Below, in pieces: positions 2,450-37,807 of a stretch of 64,000 nt of DNA. The first letter of the stretch is position 1. Each line of letters starts with the position of its first letter. The notes beneath the pieces were generated by a model. It was not told the origin of the DNA. It did no database searches and worked only from the letters and a program-made list of their open reading frames with translations. The DNA is taken from contig JBEWZL010000179.1 of NCBI GenBank assembly GCA_045837725.1, positions 434,001 to 498,000 on the forward strand. The letters are read 5' to 3'. Origin of the DNA: Vermamoeba vermiformis (lineage: Eukaryota). The translations under genes and the position numbers were made by a program.

Positions 2450-5400
2450 ATGTGCCGCTGTTCGTGTAAATCATTCCTCAATATATTTTTTATGGCCTTG
2501 TTGACGGCTACCACTGCCACGACTATTGGTCTCGCGGTACAGTTTACTCTCAAGTAAGATAATTATAAATATTAATATAAAAATATACTCATAATTACAA
2601 TAAGAGAATGGACGTAGATCGGCTATTTTTATTTCTATTTAATTTTCATATTTCAATTAAATTGACGGTTTGTTACAGAGCACCTTTCTATGAATTATTT
2701 GCTGGTGCGTTAGCAATGTCAATTATAAGCATGGTTCTAGCTTGTAAGTAATTTCAGTTTTCAAGTAACGGATCTGAAAAACGCGAAATTTTGCGGGTAA
2801 TTTTTGAGCTATTCCTAACGCACAGTTCAAGCTCAATAACGCTAAAATTATTATATTTAACTCTCCGAAACAGGTTTCTCGTGCTATTACGCATCCAGAA
2901 CAAAAACCAAAGACGAAGAAATGCGCGCCAACTATAATTTAGAACTCGTTGAAAAAGATGCTCAAGGCGAGGGTGATGATGGCGAGAAAGACCCCGAGAC
3001 ACTGCGCATTAAACAAAAATTGGCTCGTAAAGCTGCTCGTACTGAGTACCGCAATAAGTGCATGGGTACGTAGATCCCGACAATTTTCAAACGAATTGTA
3101 GCAAAAATACAACATACGACCTTCTATTATATATTGAAGGCGGCAACTATATTAAGTATATGCTATTTATAGAGCGATTTGCGCGAAGACCAAATCAGAA
3201 ATGCCTCATCTTGTTGTACCTTTGCATCAGTTTTGTGTGGTTCGTCTGCGCCCTGTACTTTGCTTATCATTTGCGCACTGATCGATACGAGAATGTTACT
3301 GGCCATATTATTGGTGCTATTAACGATCACTCGGTCAAGTTGTGGTGGAGACGTCCAGATCACGAGACACTGGTAAGTGGTGGATCCACCTTAACTTTAG
3401 GAATTATACAAGTGACCTACTATACATATGGATAATAATAATCGACACCTAGTATCAGTATACAGTATTGTGCCTGATTACTAATGCTCTGTTTAGTACG
3501 TGGAATATCGCAAACCTGATGACCGAGAGGGATACTGGCGAACAAGTGCAATGGTGCGTAGTCAATAATACAGACAACTCTACGATAGACATATGTACAT
3601 ATTATGTCTTATTTGATATATCAATAATATGCGTTGTTCTAATCTAATTTCGTTCGCAGGTCAAGATAGATCCGAGCAACGACTACACGGCCGTTGTTAC
3701 ACTAACAGGATTGAATTCCGACACGTTGTACAGCTACAGACCAGTATGGGACGGTGATGAACAGAACACGAATCAAAACGAGACTATTGGTCGTGCTGTG
3801 GATCCTCATCAGTACACGATCACTACGATGGTACCTCCTCAAAGCAGCGTGGCAGATCTGGTCTTTGTATTTGGCTCTTGCACTCTGAGTAAGTACTAGC
3901 ACCACAAATACCTCAAAAAAATTATAAGATTCATGAAGTAGTACTACTACTAGCACTTGCTATGAAATTGTTTTTTACGGGCGTGGATCGAGATCGGATC
4001 TTCGCAGCAAAGCACAGGGAAGCAAATTCGTGATAGTATGGCAAGTAGTGACCCGAACACGATGTAGCATCGCGTCTCGGGCACGACCACACTAACAAGA
4101 ATGCACCGCTTCCCGTCCGATCAGCGAAGTTAAGCTTGTTCAGGCTTTCTTAGTACTGGGGTAGGAGACTACCTGGGAATCGGAGGTGTTGTGCTCTTTA
4201 CTTTTTGCTTTTTGACTCTTTGATCCTTCCTTCGCTGATACATTCAGTCCCTTATTTTTACGACAGCTTATTTTTGGATCGGATCGAAAAATTAACTGGA
4301 TCTTTTTTTTAGAACACTTAGGAGGAACTCTTGAAGGGTAGATAACCACTGATAGTACCGGTATTATTGGCCGTATATTAACGTAATTTTTAGCTTCAAG
4401 AAGATGGGAGAAAAGAACCCTCGGTTTGGATTGGTAAGAAAAAACACGCAGCGGATCTGCTGAGCGGCTACTAATTATTATTATGTTTTTAGCTCATTGG
4501 TGATCAAATCTACGCCGATTATCCTACCTATTTGGGTGCCTCTAAAGAAGACTACGAAGTCAAGTACCGCGAGGTGGTCGCAGATGAGCATTTCTCGACA
4601 TTTGCTTCTACGACCCCTATCTTCCAAATGTGTAAGTATAGTACTTATATAAGGCATATAGAGTATTTGCCTAAGACAAGACTAACGTAGTTATGCAGTT
4701 GATGACCATGAAATCATCAATGACTGGGACCAACAACAAGCAGATCCGTACCCAGCAGTAAGTCACCTATACGACTCTTAGTATTGTATTAGTATTAAGA
4801 CCGACCTCTTGTAGGCCATTGGTGCCTGGTACGAATACGCAGGCTCGCACAATCCAAGTCCCATTCGTGCCAAGTCGCACTATTACACGTTCGAATACGG
4901 CAATGTAAGTCACTTTTAATTACTATATTTGGAAGCTTAATTAATACTAATGTTCATTGTAGGTTCCTTTCTTCGTATTAGACACTCGTTCATACAGATC
5001 TAAGAACTCGATGGTAAGTCTCATGATGGACGAGATCTTACACGAGATCTGGCCTTGACTGATCATCTTTTTACAGCACGAGAGTCCTCGTAAGACGATG
5101 TTAGGCGCATTGCAATTGCAAGACTTGAAGAATTGGTTGTTGGCTAAGAACTCCACGACATTCAAGGTGAGTGACACTTTGACACTTCAATTTTTTCACG
5201 GTGTAAACTTTATCGAACTGATATTAACATGTAAATAACGTTTAGTTCATCGTGTCGAGTGTGCCTTTCACGTTGAATTCAAACTGGGGTGACAGCTGGT
5301 CAAGTTTTGAGACTGAACGAGAAGCCATTCTGCGCTTCATCTCTGACAACAAAATTAACGGCGTGTTGATTCTCAGCGGTGACACGCATTGGGGTGCTGC

Positions 5401-5809: not shown

Positions 5810-8800
5810 TTAATTTAGATATTTATCGATCGAGTCGTAAGTATCATCGTATCTGTGATCCAATAGCGTTGTGTTTTCAGTCACGTGTTCATAGTCCATG
5901 TTTCGCCGCTTGTATTTACGTTCTCGAATGATCTGCCAGTCTTCAGGCCTGAAATAAGTACGGACCCTGTCGGCCTATATTAAAAAGTGCTCTATAATAT
6001 GTAATTGACTTCTTACCATTTTATCACGAAGTACGGGAAGATAGCGATGGACACGAGGACAATAAATCCAAGCCACGTGATCGGACTCTGTGCGTTCATA
6101 AGTGCAAAGTAGTTAAGGAAAAATATACGAGGTGTTAGTGTATCGATATAATGCATAGTATAATATAAAAAGGATATACATAATCCAGTACATGTCCGGC
6201 TCTAGCCATTGCAAAAGACAATACGGGAAAAGTACTGCAAAGTCGCCAATCAGCGTCCAAAAGAAGCAAAAGTAGTGCATCCATGTCCAGTGGCTATTAT
6301 AATACATTATTAGCATTTAAGTTTAGAAGTTAGATCTCGGATCTTACTTAGTTTCGATGGCCATCTTGATGAGCACTATAGCGATGCAAATGCAGCACGC
6401 TAACATGCCAAAAGTATATAAATCAAAGGTTTGGCCGTTGTATAGGAAGACACCTGTGCCAAACGTCCACATAGTGCCGAAGAATACAACTAACGATGCC
6501 CAAACCGCATCCGCGATCCAAATTAGGAAAGTCTACGAATATTGTTATAAAGCGTTGTTATAGCATATTAGCTTACTTTAAAGTTATAATCCAGATTTCT
6601 CCTTGACCGCGAATAAAGTTGCGGAAATTTCATCAAACTATCGATATCCACGTCTTTGTTGAATATGGCGAACATTAAGATAGGCAAGCTAGTGAATATC
6701 ATATTATAGAACGTGATGATCCACGCGTCGTAAAGACTTTGGCCCGAAAATCCGTTGTAGAATGCAAAATAAAATTGCGGCAAAGTGAACGCAATCTGTG
6801 CTCAAACATCAATATTTTTGATCGATAAATTTAAGTTGATAGTACTTACATTCTTATAGAAGTAGTATTGAATGAGCTTAGTGATCCTAATATATGTATA
6901 TCTTCCATGCACGAACATTAGCTTCTTCAGGAATGTGCAGATCTAGAGTTAAAGAAGAAAACTTCGTACGAAAAAACTAGTTAATATTTGCAGCTCATAA
7001 AAAGGATATTTGAATCTCGCACAGGCAAAATCTGAAGCACGTGACGCTTGTGACCCTTCACGGCCCATCAGACCAACTCCGACATGTGCTTCCTGAAGGT
7101 CGAAAATTAACGACAATTTCCTTTTTTGGCAACTTGTTCTATGTACCTGGATCATAGCGACGTCATTGCCTCCGTCTCCAATTGCGAGAGTCACAGCACT
7201 GGGAACACCGTCTTTGACGAGTTTGACAACTTCAGCCTTCTGAATGGGCGACACTCGGCAACAAATCACGACATCGCAGTCGAGTGACAATTCCAAGAAA
7301 CGCAGCTGCCGGCAAGGTCAGTACGCTCATAAAATATAAGCCCAATTTGGAAAAATGTAAGCTTACTCTATGGCTTGCAAGTGCGTGGGTCAATGAGTCG
7401 CCGTCAATCACAAGCACGACGTGCTGTTCTTGTGCTTTGAAAGCTTTGGCTTGTTGATGAAAATCAACCATGCGCTCGTCGAATTGAGTCTCTTCCGGGT
7501 CTAAAAATGCAATGGGCTGGTTGTCTTTTCTCGTCCACACCTCGGGTGCCTTCAACACCAAGGTCTTCGTGTCGTCCATAATCAAATTGGCCGATCTTGC
7601 AACGCTAATTGCCGTCTCGACTTTGTCACCTGTCAAGACCCATACTCGGATGAACGCCTGCGTGTAAAGGTTTAGTTACCAAATAAGGAAAAATGTCCGA
7701 CGTACCTTGCTGAAATCTCGCAAAGCATCAGGAACGCCTTCTTGCAATCGATCTTCAATGACAGTAGCGCCAAGCAAGGTCAAATCCTTTTCAATCATCA
7801 TCGACACTTTTTCAACTTTTTTCTCGCGTTGATTGACAGATGTCAATGCGTCTTGATAACGTTGATTCCATTCATTGAAAGTCGCTTCATCGAGCACTTT
7901 GCATGCCACGCATAGCACTCTGAAGCCTCTGTTCGAGTACTCATCAATGTGCTGTCGTGTTGTCTCGGCCAGGTGATTCGCGTCACCGGCATTGAGAGCT
8001 TTGAAAATTTCACTGTCGGCACCTTTAGTATACAATTTTATCTCGCCTATAACATGACATTAGTATATAAATAACGTTGATATTATATCCTTACCTTCTG
8101 GGGTCTTGACAATGACGGACATGCGTTTTCTCGTGGACGAAAATTCGATCGTGGACAAGAGTTCGAACTTCTTTTTCTCGCCTCGTACTTCGATCTCAAC
8201 GGCGTCGTTTGATCTCTGAAGACTAGGTCAGACATACTATATGAAACAGCGAAGAACGTACCGATAGAAGTTTGTAGTCGTAAGCTTTAGCGGCCTTGAT
8301 GAGTGCCTCTTCATCGGGTGACGAAGACTGATATTCTTCCTCACGTAAGATAAGTTAAAGAAATTGATTAGACTAACAAGAGATAACTATATTAATATTA
8401 ATAAAGGATATCTTCTTCGTTGTGTTCTACGTAGATTGTATTTGCCAAACTTAATGCCAACAAAAATTCTTGAACTTTTTCGTTCTGAAGACTTTCTTCC
8501 TCAGCCAAATCAATCTCGTCGTGAGATACAATCAACATCTGCAAAGATTAGACTAATTGTCACGTGGGGTATTATTAGATGTCTTACTGATTTATCAGCC
8601 GCAACGCCCAAGTCATTTTCATCGACTTCGCGGCTCGTTTTGATTTCAGTTTTGTCGCTCGGCTCGGTCTCGTCAATATCAACCATGCGCGAGGAATAAT
8701 ACTTCTTGCCGTCCACTGAGCAATATTTAAATACCATCTTATTCTCGGTTAATGTTCCGGTTTTATCGGTAAACAAATGCGTTATCTAAAAAAGGAAATT

Positions 8801-10378
8801 AGTTTTCATGAAAATCGGATCTGATTCCGTACTTGTCCCAGTTCTTCTAGCATATTGATAGTTTTGACGGTCATTCTTTTTTCTGTTTTCTCGCAATAAA
8901 GGTCCAAATCATTTTGCATAAACGCAGCAATGGCAACTTTGCACATTTCAACGGAGACGTACAACGAGATCGGGATGAACACGTTCAAGAGCACAAAGAA
9001 CGTTAAGAACTCCATGGCGATATAAAATAACACGTTCTTAAGATCCACTTTAAGCATAAGATAATGTGCTTTCTTGCCGTCGTTGATCTGTCAAAGTGTC
9101 AAAAAAAGTGACACGTGTCAAATTTCTTATAGTACGTACCACCCAAAAATAGCTAAAGACAGCGCCAGTGAGACAAAGTGCCATTAACGCAATGAAAACA
9201 TAAAGGACGTATCTGTTCAATCGACTCTCGACGTGTGTCATTTTAGACGGCGCGTCTTTTTGATTCAATGCTAACTTAGTCTCAGGGCCAGTAAATAATA
9301 CTAATCCATGAACCACGTGCGTATTTTTCAACGTCGAGCCCTAAAAAATTGCCGGTTAAATCTTCCCGTGAAAAATGTACTAAGAAAGTTTTTCACGTAC
9401 TCTCAAAAGCAGATTTTTAGCTGATAGGGGGTGTGTCGTATTATCGTCTATTGATATGTATTTGCCGTTAAACGATTCGAGCATCGGATTTGCAGCGTCG
9501 CATGAGATCCGTGCTTTAATTCCTCGCAATTCTTCTTCGCTCATTAATTCCGATGTGGAAGGCACGCACATTTTGATCTTTCTCGTAGTCTCGCTATTTA
9601 AGAACATTAATTAGTACTCGTTTTTTGATTCATCGTATTACCATAAAAGGAAAAATTTGTATTATTTTTAACAGCAAAAAAAAAGTTGTTTGTTGTGGCT
9701 GAATTGCGTACCCGTCCAAATTAGACGTTTCTACGGAACAAATGCCGCCTTGATTGCTCGTTGACAAAGGTAAAATGTCCGCTGTAATTTCTTCTCCGTC
9801 TTTAATTTTGACTATATCACCGACGAGCAGCTCTTTCGTTGGTACTGTTTGAAATCCATCACTGCGCAATATTCTAACTGGTTTATTATTCGCTTCGTCG
9901 TCTTCTTTACGCCGGCGCTAAATATTTTTTGCCAAATTAAGAAAGAAAAATCCGAAAAAAATTCCAAAACGACTTACCCAATCTTCGATAGCGTCCTTAA
10001 GGGCTGTATATGACAAGTATTGTTAGATTGAAATAATAAACAAAAATTAATAATAGCGCAATACGAACCTGAAATGGAAATAACGATGACAAGAGGCAAA
10101 ATTGAAGTGATAGGTGTCAATGGCGATATCGGAGTGCTTTGAATTATGGCCACAATTAAGAAATAAAAATTGGCAAGTCTGTATACCAATTATGATAAGT
10201 ACTAGTTGCATAGAAAGGTAGATCTGATCGCGTACCTTCGAAATTGTTCAACCAAATTTTTGAAAATAAAGTTCCAAGGGGTGTAACGATGAGTTTTAGT
10301 GATACTAGGAGGATAGCCATATTCAGCATTTTTTTCTGGGTTATTTGTAAACACTGTTCGTTGTGTTTGCTCTTCCAT
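5810..10378 (-). CDS. P4-type ATPase (phospholipid flippase), about 20 introns
   Basis: [73 protein letters not shown]. Confidence 0.95.
6102..6177 (-). other. U12-type (minor spliceosome) AT-AC intron
   Basis: 5' ATATCCTTT, branch TTTTCCTTAAC, 3' GCAC; removal restores the frame YWIM-F-MNAQSP. Confidence 0.9.
6935..7009 (-). other. U12-type AT-AC intron
   Basis: 5' ATATCCTTTT, branch TTCTTTAAC, 3' GCAC; removal restores the conserved [13 protein letters not shown]. Confidence 0.92.
8345..8411 (-). other. U12-type AT-AC intron
   Basis: 5' ATATCCTTT, branch TTCTTTAAC, 3' TTAC; removal restores [20 protein letters not shown]. Confidence 0.9.
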
Positions 10379-14551: not shown

Positions 14552-16759
14552 ATGGAAGCAAAGCCAAGAACGGAAAACGCAGCAAGAACAACAGAGAGGT
14601 GAGATCCAATCCAGCCTCGTTCATTTTCAAATTAGAAATTAATATTTTATTTGATAGAAACTTCGAAGTACCGCAGTCAATCAGAGACGAGTTGTTCAAG
14701 CTAATCACGACCAGAGTAAAAGAGGAACAGATCTTGAATATTTATTTGTGGGGCTCCAGGTAACTTCAAAACCATTAAATATATTTTCTATTATTTTTAT
14801 CTGCATTAGACTATTTTTCGAGACCAGTAGATCTGTTAGCAAATCGGCGAAAAATTACAGAATTCAAAACTGTGTTTAAATTTCACTAACCGTTGGTTAT
14901 TATAGATTTTGGGGTACCCACAATGAAGCCTCCGATTGGGACTTTGTAACGATAGTTAAAGACTACGTCCAGCCGAAAAAAGATTCAACCGTTATCGGAA
15001 CGAACGTGGATGTGTCAATCTACGATGTTAAATACTTTGATAGTACGTTAAACTATTCATTTCAATTCTATTGATACTAATTTCTTCGAAGATTTAATCG
15101 TAGAACATGTCCCATGGGCGCTACAGTTGCTTTGGTGGCCTGAAAATGCGACGCTTCAAAAGCATTACGACATTAAATTTCACTGCTACAGAGTTCGTTT
15201 GCGACACGCGCTATTGATTAATTCGCAAGTCAATGGCCAGCAACTAAAGTCCTACTTCCTCAACAACGAGATCATGCCCGCCGTCAAACGCGCATACCAC
15301 GTGATTCAGATGGCCGTTCTGATGCAGCAAATTGCCATTCATGGAAAAATTGTCGATTACTTTGCTGCCACCGACTACCTTCAGCGATTCAAAGAAGTGA
15401 GCGGCGATTGGAAGACTTTTCATGAATACTGGAAGAAGACGTACTATCAAGTGGTCGACGTTGAATTTCTAAATATAGTAGACGCCTATTTGAAATTCGA
15501 AGCAGAAGTTACTGACACTAGACCACTCGCAAAAACGATTGCTTATATTAAGGAGTATGGCCTCAAAGCCTTGGACGTGGATCTGGCGATCATCGTAAGG
15601 AGATCCGAAAAATTTCCTAATTTGGTGCACTTCCATCACGAACGAGAGTATACACCTATGAACTCTTTGATTGGCGCAGAGTGCAACGGAATAATTCTCG
15701 ACGAGAGCAAGGATTGGTCCATTGTCTGCATGCCCTACATCCAGTTTTACTCGGAGTCAAACTTCTCCGGTCTTGTCGCTGAAATTGATTGGAACACGCC
15801 ACTACAAGTGACAGAGCAATTGGATGGCTACAAAGCGACTCTATATCGATACAACGATGAATGGCACGTCGCGACTGAACTCTCGCCTGACGGCAGTGAG
15901 GTCCTCGAGGATTACAATGGCGAGAAGGTCTTGTTTAGAGATTTGTTTTGGCGCTTGTTCAAGTCGAAAGGCTACGAGCTGCCTGATCCGAAGGAGAACT
16001 GCAACTATATGTTCGAACTGATTAGTGTCAACAATAGAGACATTGTCTGGTATGCTGAAGACTCTCTTACACTGCACGGTGTTAGAAAGCTCGAAGGAGA
16101 ATTCAAAGAATTCGATGCAAAGCCTGTCGCGGAGAAATACAAGTGGCAATTTGTGCGCGAGATCCATTTGCGGAAAGTGTCAAAAGATACAATCAACGCT
16201 GCTCTTCTGACGGAAAAGAATTGCTGTGGGTATATCATACGAGATCAGAACTTTGCCAGAATTATCTTCCGACATCCGTTGGTGAAGGGGTTGCTGAAGG
16301 TCAAATTTGGTCAACTCGTGTCTAAACAACGGCTCGAAATATTCAAGCTCCTCTGTGGATTTAGCGATCAAGAAACACTAATGACCTATCCGTACCCTGA
16401 AACACAAGAAATGTTCGACTACGCAAAGGACAAGTACGTGGATCTCTGCAACAAAGTCAATAAGACATACGGCGACTTGAAAGCTATCGCGGATATGAAG
16501 GTATTTTCAGCTGAAGCGAACAAATTCGGCGAATTGAAGCACTTCATATTCGCTATGAAAAACGCAAAGAGCGATGACGCAGGTCCTCTTTTCCGCAAAC
16601 AAGGTACGTTGCTAATTATTGTATTATAACCCCTCCTCGTGCTAACACTATTGCTTGGTAGTCTCTGCGAATGTGTACAAGTTCATGCAATTGGTAGTGA
16701 ACTATTGGATGAACGAGCACCCGCAAGATGACGAGGAAGAGAAGTTTTGTTTCAAATAA
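14552..16759 (+). CDS. Pol-beta-type nucleotidyltransferase fused to a T4 Rnl1-like RNA ligase domain (motif I Lys replaced by Gln)
   Basis: N-terminal IYLWGSRFWGTHNEASDWDF..NVDVSIY; C-terminal ECNGIILD..WSIVCMPYIQFY..IDW..EQLDGY..WHVAT..YMFELIS. Confidence 0.75.
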
Positions 16760-34990: not shown

Positions 34991-37807
34991 ATGGCTGAGC
35001 TGGCGAAAAAAAGAAAGCTCAGCGCAAGCGAAGTAAACGACGCTCCGCTTAAGAAAAGAAAGCTCGGGTACTGAATATAGATAAATAATGTTATTTTAAA
35101 CCGTTACTAATTTAACCAAATCCAGAGCTTCAGGAGATTCGCTAAGCCTAAGATCTTCGGGAACGATTATCAGTTTGGCTGACATCCAAAAGTAAGTCAT
35201 GCAATTACCAAACATCAAAAAATTATTTCAAAAATATTGGGTGGCAGCGATCTAATTTCTGCAGCCAATAAAATAAATTAACCGAATCTTCCTTCAGGTT
35301 GACAGTTGCTCGTTATTGCACGGTAAAACAAATAGAGAAATCCAACAATGCTTCGCCTATTATAAACGTGCAGTGGGACGCTTCAAAACTCCAATCCTGT
35401 CTTTCAACAGAGGAACTCGCAGATCAATTACTTTTAAGCAACATTATGACCGGCCATATCATCAATGGAAAGCTGTGGCCCATATTGTTGGATAATAGCC
35501 CTGACCCTCTCGTGCAAAAACGTACATTGGCCTTTATGGAGTCGCTAGCAAATGATTGGTCAATTCTCCAAACCCTCTCCGAACAAGAGCATCTTTTTTT
35601 GATGGTTGGAATCCGCGATCTTTGGCTGGCTGATTCACGTGGCTTATTAAATCAAAAAGAAAAGGCAATGCTAAACACGATCCTCGATCAACTCGAAGAT
35701 GATCTGGTCCCATCCGCCGAACATCAATCATTGACGTTCTCATTTTGCCCTACCAAGAACAGACGCGTGTTCAAATTGATCTCTCACCTCGAAGAGATGT
35801 CAGAAATCGATACATTGCTACTTCAATCCGTTGCTCAAATGAGGATCGAGTTGTACGAAGAAGATGGTGGCATTGATGAAGTTCTCTATGCTGTGTGGGT
35901 CGATCCACGTGACCTATCATATCACAATTTTGAATTTATACTGCCCTTGGATCGAGCTTTGAAACGCAAGACAAAGACCGAGAATGAAAGCCTGGACTTC
36001 AACGTGACAGGTGTCAAAAGCCTTGATGACACTATACAAATTGTGCGTGGCAAGCTTGAAGGCGCCGATACGGATCTCTTGCTTCAATTGGACAAACTAG
36101 GCTTGTATCAAAAGCCAGCCAACTCTAGCACCAGAGGCGGAGAACGATTTGTTTTCTCATCTTCGGCACTTTCAGACGGTCTTACGAAGGCAATCAAGGA
36201 GTCAAAACTTTTGAAAAAGCTTTGCCGAGGCGTCCACAAAAGCTTTCAGTTCGTGAACTATGTTTTCCGATGCAACAGATTCACCCCGAGCGACGCAAAG
36301 TTTGACATGCACCTTGACACGCCATACTACGATCCAGCTCGAAATCACATCTCGCTATATACAATGATTATATACCTCAGTAGCGGCTCTGACAAGTCAA
36401 TCTTGAAGGTCTTAGATAACAACAAAGAAAACAGAAAGAAAGTTTCAGTGAAAAAAGTTGACACGTTGGAATTCGTCATTTTTAACCAGCAATATGAACA
36501 CGAAGGCAGGCCATTCATCGATAACGACAAGATATTCTTAAGAACAGAGCTGATATTCTCGTACGATCCACAAAAACTCGTTCACAAACCAGAAGTCAGC
36601 AAAATTTTCAGTTCAGCGATCTACATGACACTCGAAAGCTCTTTTCAACCGGAGTTATCAAAGTACGCACATCAGCTATACGAAAAAGTCAACGCCGTAC
36701 ACTGGGCCCTCACTCAAGAATCGGATCCGCCTTTAGTTTTGCAAAAATGTTGGGCGGATCAGATCCCCTTCGCGACGAATGGATCTGACTACTGGTTCCC
36801 TCTCATTCAACAGAAGTCAAATGACGCTTCCAATTCCAGCAAGCTCTTATCTACGCCGCTTGGTTTCATCAAATTAGCTGCAATGATTGCTACTTTGGAC
36901 TACACGAACGCTAGTCTCAAGCGCGATAATGATGCGGAGAAATCCAAGAAAAAGAAAAAGAAGACGACGAATCCGCACGAACTATTCCAACACTTCCGAT
37001 CCAACTGCCAAGTAAAAGAAATTTCGCGGCCTTCAGACGAGCCTGAGAAAGTCAACTCCGACGACTGGATCTTGAAGCACTTATGGACGGCGGTTAACGA
37101 CAAGCGTACTATTAAACCTGAATGTGAAGCCAAACTTCCCATTGTGTTAACAAATGGTGACGAAGCCGTAGAAATCATGGACAAAGAACTCATAGACTAC
37201 AAAGATGACGACGATGAAGAAAAGTCCGAAGAAAACTCCAACAGTGAATCTTTCTGTTGTCCGTTTCATTGTAACGATGGAAACTTCGAGCCTCACAAGA
37301 ATGAAGATGTGCAAGAAGCGTACGACGAGATCATTGAATTTGGTAATGAAAGATTGTTCCGAGCCCCAGTGTTCATCTACAACCAGCAAATTCATTTGAA
37401 CCCGGAGAATATCACCGTTGAAAACGACAAAATCTTCGTTGGTTGTGGATCCAACTCGCTGCCCGCAGTCAACTTTGCGTGTAAGTAGCAACAAGTCGTT
37501 CGTATCAAATATCAATTTATACTAATGAATACATCTAGCCTGCTGGCCTGAACCTGCTTCCTCGTTTGTCGGCGTCAACCAAGAGATTCATGTGCCGCAA
37601 TTGCTCATGGCACCCATCAGCTTCATTTTGATCGCGGCGAATGACAAGACTGGCGCGGGTCCGGGAATCAGACTGATGATCGATTTGTTCAAGAACGATT
37701 GGATCATGCCTAACGACGCCGACCTTGAGAGAACTGTTAAAGTTCCAAATATGGAAGGTGGCCGTGGTGTCGACTGGCATGAGTACAATCCAGATATGGA
37801 AAATTAA
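34991..37807 (+). CDS. Hypothetical protein containing a 2OG-Fe(II) oxygenase (prolyl-hydroxylase-like) domain
   Basis: FRCNRF..FDMHLD (HxD)..YTMIIYL..VIFNQQYEHEG..KIFLRTELIF; N-terminal KKRKL twice (NLS-like). Confidence 0.65.

What the first reader, a model, noticed from the sequence alone, without database searches (positions are those of the whole stretch)
6102..8411. Three U12-type AT-AC minor introns in one flippase gene
Seen: introns 6102-6177, 6935-7009 and 8345-8411 (minus strand) all begin ATATCCTTT, carry TTCYTTAAC close to the 3' end and finish in AC. Each removal restores the reading frame, including the conserved RFKFLKKL and SPDEEAL regions. Established: this is the minor-spliceosome (U11/U12) consensus. 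Minor introns are rare, usually one per host gene, and AT-AC is the less common subtype in animals and plants. Physarum is the known amoebozoan with a large expansion. Inference: this lineage keeps an active minor spliceosome and may be gaining U12 introns.
Basis: partly seen in the sequence, partly recalled or inferred. Interest (0 to 1): 0.8.

Follow-up and report, generated by a model that had tools for sequence, protein, structure and literature searches.

The report
Three minor introns in amoeba flippase
A lipid-flippase gene of an amoeba-like microbe really does carry three rare AT-AC introns of the kind removed by the cell's second, minor splicing machine, but the genome as a whole has an ordinary small number of such introns, so this is an unusually tight cluster of old introns and not a sign of a new expansion.

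Summary
Observation confirmed. Introns 8411-8345, 7009-6935 and 6177-6102 (minus strand) are U12-type AT-AC introns 9, 15 and 19 of a 20-intron P4-ATPase gene. Removing them gives a 1127-aa protein that aligns without a gap to a relative's intron-free protein. A spliced contig skips 6102-6177 exactly. A relative with only 48% identity at four-fold sites keeps all three as AT-AC. The genome holds U11, U12, U6atac and CENATAC; U4atac was not found. So an active minor spliceosome is supported. An expansion is not: patterns give roughly 110-120 short minor introns as a lower bound, about 0.1-0.2% of a rough 90,000. That is like Pelomyxa or Protostelium and far below Physarum, and the signals are canonical. 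Three AT-AC introns in one gene is far beyond chance, but clustering of minor introns is a published general rule. Whether these three were gained within amoebae or kept from an older ancestor is unresolved: two have no counterpart in the paralogues, and no human P4-ATPase is listed with a minor intron. The nearest named homologues are tubulinean amoebae, a group my searches did not find covered for minor introns.

The parts
5810..10378 (-). P4-ATPase (phospholipid flippase) gene, 21 coding exons, 20 introns, 1127 aa
   Evidence: Model; 1040 of 1127 residues identical and no gap against intron-free P0001; P0001 scores 1128 bits on TIGR01652, cut-off 431
8345..8411 (-). Intron 9, U12-type AT-AC, 67 nt, phase 1, after codon 486, nine codons before SPDE; branch motif TTCTTTAAC
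   Evidence: junction matches P0001, P0122, P0123, P0126; AT-AC at the same place in L058, L059, L060; not bridged by any listed RNA joint
6935..7009 (-). Intron 15, U12-type AT-AC, 75 nt, phase 2, in codon 846 of the RF-K-FL motif; branch motif TTCTTTAAC
   Evidence: spacing around this site equals the model in 71 of 71 aligned P4-ATPase rows; AT-AC in L058 and L059; not bridged by any listed RNA joint
6102..6177 (-). Intron 19, U12-type AT-AC, 76 nt, phase 1, after codon 1047; branch motif TTCCTTAAC
   Evidence: one spliced contig of run X1 skips exactly these 76 nt, 74 letters on the shorter side, no ambiguity; AT-AC, 93 nt, in L059

Best explanation
These are three genuine U12-type introns of the AT-AC subtype, removed by a conventional minor spliceosome in a probably tubulinean amoeba. 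U11 pairs with the ATATCCTTT donor, U12 pairs with the branch site and bulges the A, U6atac (of the known CC variant) with U12 forms the catalytic core, and CENATAC supports the AT-AC subtype. The introns are old and kept by selection on their signals. The genome has an ordinary, small minor-intron set (about 0.1-0.2% of introns), and this gene is an extreme case of the known tendency of minor introns to cluster in the same genes. Because retention of any one of the three breaks the protein, making this flippase depends three times on AT-AC splicing. Shown: signals, frame, one spliced junction, conservation in a relative, presence of three snRNAs and CENATAC, genome-wide order of magnitude. 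Inferred: that the minor and not the major spliceosome does the cutting, the pairings, the lineage, and the age beyond the one relative.
For: Signals and frame. Gap-free match to intron-free P0001 over all 20 junctions. Exact skip of 6102-6177, and 9 of 9 listed joints of X1 fall on modelled introns. L059: 20 of 20 intron positions and phases shared, three AT-AC kept, 182 of 378 four-fold sites identical, intron bodies unalignable. U6atac 54.8 bits, U12 69.8, U11 72.8; CCDC84 E 3.7e-28. Computed duplexes: U11-donor -6.5 to -8.0, U12-branch -8.7 to -10.0 kcal/mol. Genome-wide: 16 strict AT-AC rows (control 0), 26 strict GT-AG rows at 24 donors (control 2), 215 relaxed rows (control 54). Three of 12 tested host genes are human minor-intron genes. 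Clustering was found in all 21 genomes of PMC7367187.
Against: U4atac was not found. Only one of three junctions has direct spliced-contig support, from one contig of depth 3.3 in a run whose RNA nature is a guess and whose letters differ by 1-5%. P0001 is taken to be transcript-derived only because it is an unbroken 1127-aa frame on short contigs. U6atac pairs weakly with the donor (-2.0 to -2.8). Introns 15 and 19 have no counterpart in 8 and 7 paralogues, and no human P4-ATPase appears in two human minor-intron lists, so great age is not shown for these three. The phase-0 deficit of the genome's minor introns is not significant (14 of 44 against 45 of 93, p 0.096). Counts rest on patterns and one window's intron density, not on an annotation.
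Confidence: 0.75

Rival explanations
1. Local gain: the three AT-AC introns (at least 15 and 19) were inserted into this one flippase gene within amoebae, after it split from its paralogues, a gene that already needs the minor spliceosome being a permissive place for more. The genome-wide set is still small.
For: No intron at the positions of 15 and 19 in 8 and 7 own paralogues, while 6 of 17 major introns are shared exactly with at least one paralogue. No ATP8, ATP9, ATP10 or ATP11 gene in the human U12 table of PMC6800510, where UPF1 and TMEM30A were found. All three are the rarer subtype; chance of three among 20 introns about 7e-8 per gene for 40 AT-AC in 100,000.
Against: 11 of 17 major introns also lack an exact paralogue match, so 2 of 3 unmatched is not unusual. 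Three paralogues have a phase-1 GT-AG intron at or one codon from intron 9, as minor-to-major conversion of an old intron would leave (variable loop, so uncertain). The three bodies are not alike, and all predate the split from L059. PMC10639083 calls minor-intron gain extremely rare.
Confidence: 0.25
2. Genome-wide, Physarum-like expansion of minor introns, of which this gene is a sample.
For: Three in one gene plus a fourth candidate (GT-AG, 49136-49067) in the same 64 kb, about four where 0.2-0.3 would be expected. My patterns need a perfect RTATCCTT, a near-canonical branch site and a length of at most 86 nt, so they miss some (one search shows three donors with other eighth letters; L059's 93-nt intron would be missed).
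Against: Net about 160 relaxed rows, about 110-120 distinct donors, in 43.3 Mb against 3,648 perfect donors and over 20,000 minor introns in Physarum. No U12 donor among 118 modelled introns of 8 paralogues. U12 snRNA keeps the canonical branch-binding site, unlike Physarum.
Confidence: 0.05
3. The introns are mis-called: transcripts use nearby GT-AG or GC-AG sites, or the major spliceosome removes them as rare U2-type AT-AC introns.
For: In-frame GT-AG or GC-AG alternatives exist within 30 nt of each intron (4, 11 and 5 pairs). Two of three junctions lack direct RNA joints. U4atac not found.
Against: Every alternative adds or removes 1-15 residues, while P0001 and its cluster mates match the AT-AC model with no gap. 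X1 skips 6102-6177 exactly. Donor and branch motifs are minor-type and conserved in L059 while the bodies are not.
Confidence: 0.03

Closest known systems
U12-type (minor) introns, AT-AC subtype
   Same: ATATCCTTT donor, TTCCTTAAC-type branch site 9-12 nt from an AC end, phases 1 and 2, U11, U12, U6atac and CENATAC in the genome.
   Different: Short (67-76 nt, yet longer than this gene's major introns, median 54 nt); two of three branch sites read TTCTTTAAC, which needs a G-U pair with U12; all three in the gene are the AT-AC subtype.
Human genes with several U12 introns (about 50 with two, a few with three, mostly voltage-gated channels; PMC3584512, passages)
   Same: Several minor introns clustered in one large membrane-protein gene, beyond chance.
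   Different: Host is a P4-ATPase, a family absent from the two human minor-intron lists searched; the genome has several times fewer minor introns than human, so the cluster holds about 8% of the estimated AT-AC set.
Minor-intron sets of Protostelium aurantium (265), Pelomyxa schiedti (90) and Acanthamoeba (12) (PMC10639083, sections 24 and 25 passages)
   Same: Amoebozoan genome with tens to a few hundred minor introns, some host genes shared with human.
   Different: Probably a tubulinean; the word Tubulinea was not found in the main text of PMC10639083, in the supplement of PMC11347168, or with 'spliceosome' and 'U12' in the library.
Physarum polycephalum minor-intron expansion (10.1101/2020.10.12.336362, passages)
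   Same: Amoebozoan, AT-AC introns present, CC-variant U6atac.
   Different: Over a hundredfold fewer minor introns; canonical branch sites and canonical U12 snRNA, not the TTTGA/GCAAAGAA pair.
U6atac 'CC variant' ([GU]CCGA for AAGGA; PMC2396436, passages)
   Same: The single U6atac copy found reads GCCGA at this place and pairs poorly with the donor.
   Different: Nothing; already reported in Acanthamoeba, Physarum, oomycetes, cnidarians and moss, and left unexplained there.

Membership tests
U12-type intron | Extended donor RTATCCTT | tested here: met
   ATATCCTTT in 3 of 3; ATATCCT in 3 of 3 in L059, with ATATCCTAA in its intron 9
U12-type intron | TCCTTAAC-type branch site close to the 3' end, pairing with U12 snRNA | tested here: met
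   1 exact, 2 with one C-to-T change; computed duplex with the genome's own U12 -8.7 to -10.0 kcal/mol
U12-type intron | Spliced at the AT and AC ends in RNA | tested here: met
   Direct for intron 19 only (one contig); indirect for 9 and 15 through gap-free intron-free relatives
U12-type intron | U11, U12 and U6atac snRNA genes in the genome | tested here: met
   One copy each above Rfam cut-off
U12-type intron | U4atac snRNA gene in the genome | tested here: inconclusive
   No match; only 50 of 1827 candidates scored; 4 pattern hits, none U4atac by Rfam. Planoprotostelium also lists no U4atac coordinates in PMC11347168 Table S7
U12-type intron | Minor-spliceosome proteins | tested here: met
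   Only CENATAC/CCDC84 was searched: 102.6 bits, cut-off 25.3; 65K, 48K, 59K, ZCRB1 and TXNL4B not searched
U12-type intron | Splicing depends on the minor spliceosome (knock-down causes retention) | not testable with these tools
   Needs an experiment
Physarum-type expanded minor system | Thousands of minor introns | tested here: not met
   215 rows against 54 control rows genome-wide
Physarum-type expanded minor system | Changed branch motif with co-changed U12 snRNA | tested here: not met
   U12 reads GAGTAAGGAAAA, canonical
P4-ATPase | TIGR01652 over cut-off; DKTGT phosphorylation motif and PISL motif | tested here: met
   1128 bits for the 92%-identical P0001; motifs in the model translation
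ATP11 class of P4-ATPases | Closer to ATP11 than to ATP8 or Drs2 | tested here: inconclusive
   PDB scores ATP8A1 744, Drs2 739, ATP8B1 726, ATP11C 718 bits; no ATP11 row in the tree; motif likeness is recalled only

The most novel reading that the evidence does not exclude
The three AT-AC introns are gene-specific gains in tubulinean amoebae: a flippase with no minor-intron history elsewhere picked up three AT-AC introns while the rest of the genome kept an ordinary small set. That would be a rare, datable case of minor-intron gain outside Physarum, would suggest that clustering can arise by repeated gain in a gene already using the minor spliceosome, and would put this flippase under CENATAC-dependent control.
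Probability: 0.25. Interest if true: 0.6.

Novelty: new member of a known kind. Interest (0 to 1): 0.3.

Why it matters
It adds a probably unsurveyed amoebozoan branch (likely Tubulinea) to the lineages with a working minor spliceosome, including the AT-AC factor CENATAC and the unexplained CC-variant U6atac. The gene is a handy natural reporter: three short AT-AC introns, each of which breaks the protein if kept, among 17 major ones. It is also an annotation trap, since GT-AG-only gene finders will break this gene in three places. If orthologues outside the group lack introns at these sites, it becomes a test case for how minor introns are gained and why they cluster.

Tried and rejected
RNA search: no RNA holder was listed by index. 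Raw-read runs X6-X8 laid only 6, 3 and 9 reads, nearly all 90-95% alike, with no joints: uninformative. U4atac: Rfam search empty; a pattern built from the own U6atac gave 4 hits (control 1), none recognised by Rfam. A second U6atac with the AAGGA box: 1 exact hit, the same gene; the 12 one-mismatch hits are near the control level of 8. A second donor class matching the GCCGA box: not seen among 39 rows; the variant turned out to be published, so it was dropped as a novelty. Recent copying of one intron: bodies show no similarity. Two AT-AC introns 3.2 kb apart on C215 looked like a second cluster but seem to lie in different genes. More distant genomic orthologues: L061-L063 cover only the first 125 residues; a scan of viral contigs with P0128 found nothing. 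Lineage by DNA polymerase delta: best hits unnamed, then Copromyxa and many plants at similar identity, so weak. ATP11 class: not resolved. Supplements of PMC6865273 held no P4-ATPase names and one supplementary file of PMC6800510 was not searched. Earlier notes of this scan: nothing found. The first tree run did not finish and was redone with FastTree.

Full report
Observation. The window is G000:C179:434001-498000 of a 43.3-Mb, 309-contig genome. On the minus strand, 8411-8345 (67 nt), 7009-6935 (75 nt) and 6177-6102 (76 nt) begin ATATCCTTT and end in AC. Their branch motifs are TTCTTTAAC, TTCTTTAAC and TTCCTTAAC, 9-12 nt before the end. They are introns 9, 15 and 19 (phases 1, 2, 1) of a gene from 10378 to 5810 with 17 further GT-AG introns of 44-118 nt. 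The strict pattern was seen 0 times in 300 first-order simulations of the window.

Host gene. The model gives 1127 aa. An intron-free protein from unnamed JGI and Logan contigs, P0001, is also 1127 aa and aligns with 1040 identities and no gap, across all 20 junctions. Cluster mates agree at the junctions they cover: P0122 and P0126 at all three, P0123 at intron 9, P0121 at 15 and 19; P0124, P0125, P0002 and P0127 cover none. I take these to be transcript-derived because they are unbroken frames on short contigs; that is inference. P0001 scores 1128 bits on the P4-ATPase model TIGR01652. Its class is unresolved: ATP8A1, Drs2, ATP8B1 and ATP11C score within 26 bits of each other. In a FastTree of 47 rows it groups (support 98) with an unnamed 55% protein, a Balamuthia protein and P0130. 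P0130 is from Pyxidicula, and the best named hit for a DNA polymerase delta exon is from Copromyxa; both are Tubulinea. The organism is therefore probably a tubulinean amoeba, on best-hit evidence only; plant polymerases scored nearly as well.

Are they spliced as AT-AC? In-frame GT-AG or GC-AG alternatives lie within 30 nt of each intron (4, 11 and 5 pairs), but each changes the protein length by 1-15 residues, which P0001 does not show. Around intron 15 the spacing of the model is shared by 71 of 71 aligned P4-ATPase rows. Of four runs laid, only X1 was informative. Its contigs are 95-99% alike, 9 of 9 listed joints fall on modelled introns, and one skips exactly 6102-6177 (one contig, depth 3.3). 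Introns 9 and 15 were not bridged. X6-X8 gave 6, 3 and 9 reads and no joints.

Machinery. G000 holds U6atac (54.8 bits, cut-off 33), U12 (69.8, cut-off 53) and U11 (72.8, cut-off 39), one copy each, and a CENATAC/CCDC84 gene (E 3.7e-28). CENATAC promotes splicing of AT-AN minor introns in human cells (PMC8280824, abstract and passages). U4atac was not found: 50 of 1827 candidates were scored, and four pattern hits were not U4atac. This shows neither presence nor absence. Computed duplexes of the organism's own snRNAs with the three introns are -6.5 to -8.0 kcal/mol (U11-donor) and -8.7 to -10.0 (U12-branch), but only -2.0 to -2.8 for U6atac-donor (approximate). The weak value arises because this U6atac reads GCCGA where the consensus has AAGGA. 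No second copy stood out. This is the published 'CC variant' of Acanthamoeba, Physarum, oomycetes and others (PMC2396436, passages).

Age. A metagenome locus, L059, carries the orthologue with 20 of 20 introns at the same position and phase and 994 of 1124 residues identical. The three AT-AC introns are kept (70, 72 and 93 nt) with minor-type donors and branch sites. Only 182 of 378 four-fold sites are identical and the intron bodies do not align, so the signals are under selection and the introns predate this split. L058 and L060 appear to be the same species as L059 and are not independent. Eight paralogues in G000 were modelled with a spliced aligner of my own: none of 118 introns has a minor donor. 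None has an intron at the place of intron 15 (8 covered) or intron 19 (7 covered). Three have a phase-1 GT-AG intron at or one codon from intron 9, in a loop that aligns poorly. Six of the 17 major introns are shared exactly with a paralogue. No ATP8, ATP9, ATP10 or ATP11 gene is in the human U12 tables of PMC6800510 (3 of 4 supplementary files searched), and none of 13 recalled Ensembl ids of P4-ATPases is in Table S8 of PMC11347168. So these three cannot be shown to be ancient beyond amoebae. Gain in this gene lineage, and retention with loss elsewhere, both remain open.

Genome-wide count. Strict patterns gave 16 AT-AC rows (control 0), 3 of them in this gene, and 26 GT-AG rows at 24 donors (control 2). 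A relaxed pattern gave 215 rows against 54. By hand, the 100 rows listed hold 71 distinct donors, of which about 17 look like AT-AC and about 33 like GT-AG introns of 63-85 nt. Scaling gives about 110-120 net, a third of them AT-AC. This is a lower bound, since the pattern needs a perfect donor and at most 86 nt; a few are duplicates in near-identical regions. From the excess of strong donors in this one window (299 against about 200; 13 of 17 modelled donors are of these kinds) I estimate about 90,000 introns in all, a rough figure. Minor introns are then about 0.1-0.2%. Published figures are 90 for Pelomyxa, 265 for Protostelium and about 0.3% for vertebrates (PMC10639083, section 24), and over 20,000 for Physarum, with 3,648 perfect donors and a co-changed U12 (10.1101/2020.10.12.336362, passages). 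Here U12 is canonical. Of 12 host-gene names tested against the human U12 list, 3 were present (PPP2R2A, HSBP1, VPS11) and 9 were not. Eight identities rest on Pfam or homologue hits (HSBP1 below cut-off) and four on recalled peptide likeness, and positions were not compared. Inferred phases of 44 candidates were 14, 22 and 8 for phases 0, 1 and 2, against 45, 22 and 26 for 93 major introns of this gene and five paralogues (L097, L099 and L100 left out); p 0.096, so only suggestive.

The cluster. With 40 AT-AC introns in 100,000, three among 20 has a chance of about 7e-8 per gene and at most about 4e-4 per genome; across the range tried the genome-level figure was 1e-5 to 3e-3. The cluster is real. 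Clustering of minor introns was significant in all 21 genomes of PMC7367187 (section 15 read), and humans have a few genes with three (PMC3584512, passages). What is less usual is that all three are AT-AC, about 8% of the estimated AT-AC set, in a family not listed as a minor-intron host in humans.

How it most likely works. U11/U12 recognise donor and branch site across a 67-76-nt intron. U4atac/U6atac.U5, with CENATAC, replaces U11, and U6atac with U12 catalyses branching and ligation at the AC end (established pathway, recalled; not tested here). Retention of intron 9 or 19 shifts the frame, and retention of 15 gives a stop before the last six membrane helices, so output of this flippase needs three AT-AC events. 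Whether the cell uses this for regulation is unknown.

Novelty and verdict. I found no paper on minor introns in Tubulinea: 0 papers for 'Tubulinea', 'spliceosome', 'U12', 0 for 'Vermamoeba', 'minor introns', the word absent from the main text of PMC10639083 and from the supplement of PMC11347168. The species tables of PMC10639083 were not seen and the library lacks most subscription papers. Verdict: real U12-type AT-AC introns, a new member of a known kind; active minor spliceosome supported; expansion not supported; local gain open (0.25). Interest 0.3.

Noticed in passing
window 49136-49067 (-): A fourth candidate minor intron, GT-AG subtype (GTATCCTTTT donor, TTTTCTTAAT branch motif, 70 nt, phase 1), whose removal opens the frame in a gene with an INTS1 domain. 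INTS1 is not in the human U12 list searched.
   Followed up: partly
L001:1501-1608 (G000:C146:77204-77311): U6atac of the CC variant (GCCGA for AAGGA), with mismatches opposite donor positions +6 and +7; known but unexplained.
   Followed up: yes
window 4079-4197 (+): A lone 5S rRNA gene (102 bits) lying between exon-like stretches of a plus-strand protein gene, apparently inside an intron.
   Followed up: no
L004-L045, L103-L107: Candidate minor introns have a narrow length range (median 74 nt, nearly all 63-80), about 20 nt longer than the major introns of the flippase (median 54), which suggests a larger minimum size for the minor spliceosome here; the search pattern also bounds the length.
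   Followed up: partly
L043, L044, L045 (C306) and C30:420003-422948: A tandem family of membrane-protein genes in which each copy carries the same phase-1 GT-AG minor intron, so gene duplication has multiplied some minor introns.
   Followed up: partly
L095 and L097; L024 and L034: Near-identical gene copies on different contigs (C306 and C30; C80 and C156), either recent duplications or uncollapsed haplotypes, which slightly inflate the counts.
   Followed up: no
P0128 cluster (JGI and Logan): A 55%-identical orthologue occurs as an unbroken 1118-aa frame on contigs of up to 10-13 kb, which may be an intron-poor relative or a processed copy; no match in viral contigs.
   Followed up: partly
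PMC6800510 Table S3: The human flippase partner subunit TMEM30A (CDC50A) has a minor intron although the catalytic subunits are not listed; the CDC50 genes of G000 were not examined.
   Followed up: no
window 15052-16629 (+) and 35272-37488 (+): Two long intron-free frames (525 and 738 aa) with no NCBIfam match; by recalled motifs the first resembles T4-type RNA ligases and the second a 2-oxoglutarate/iron oxygenase.
   Followed up: no
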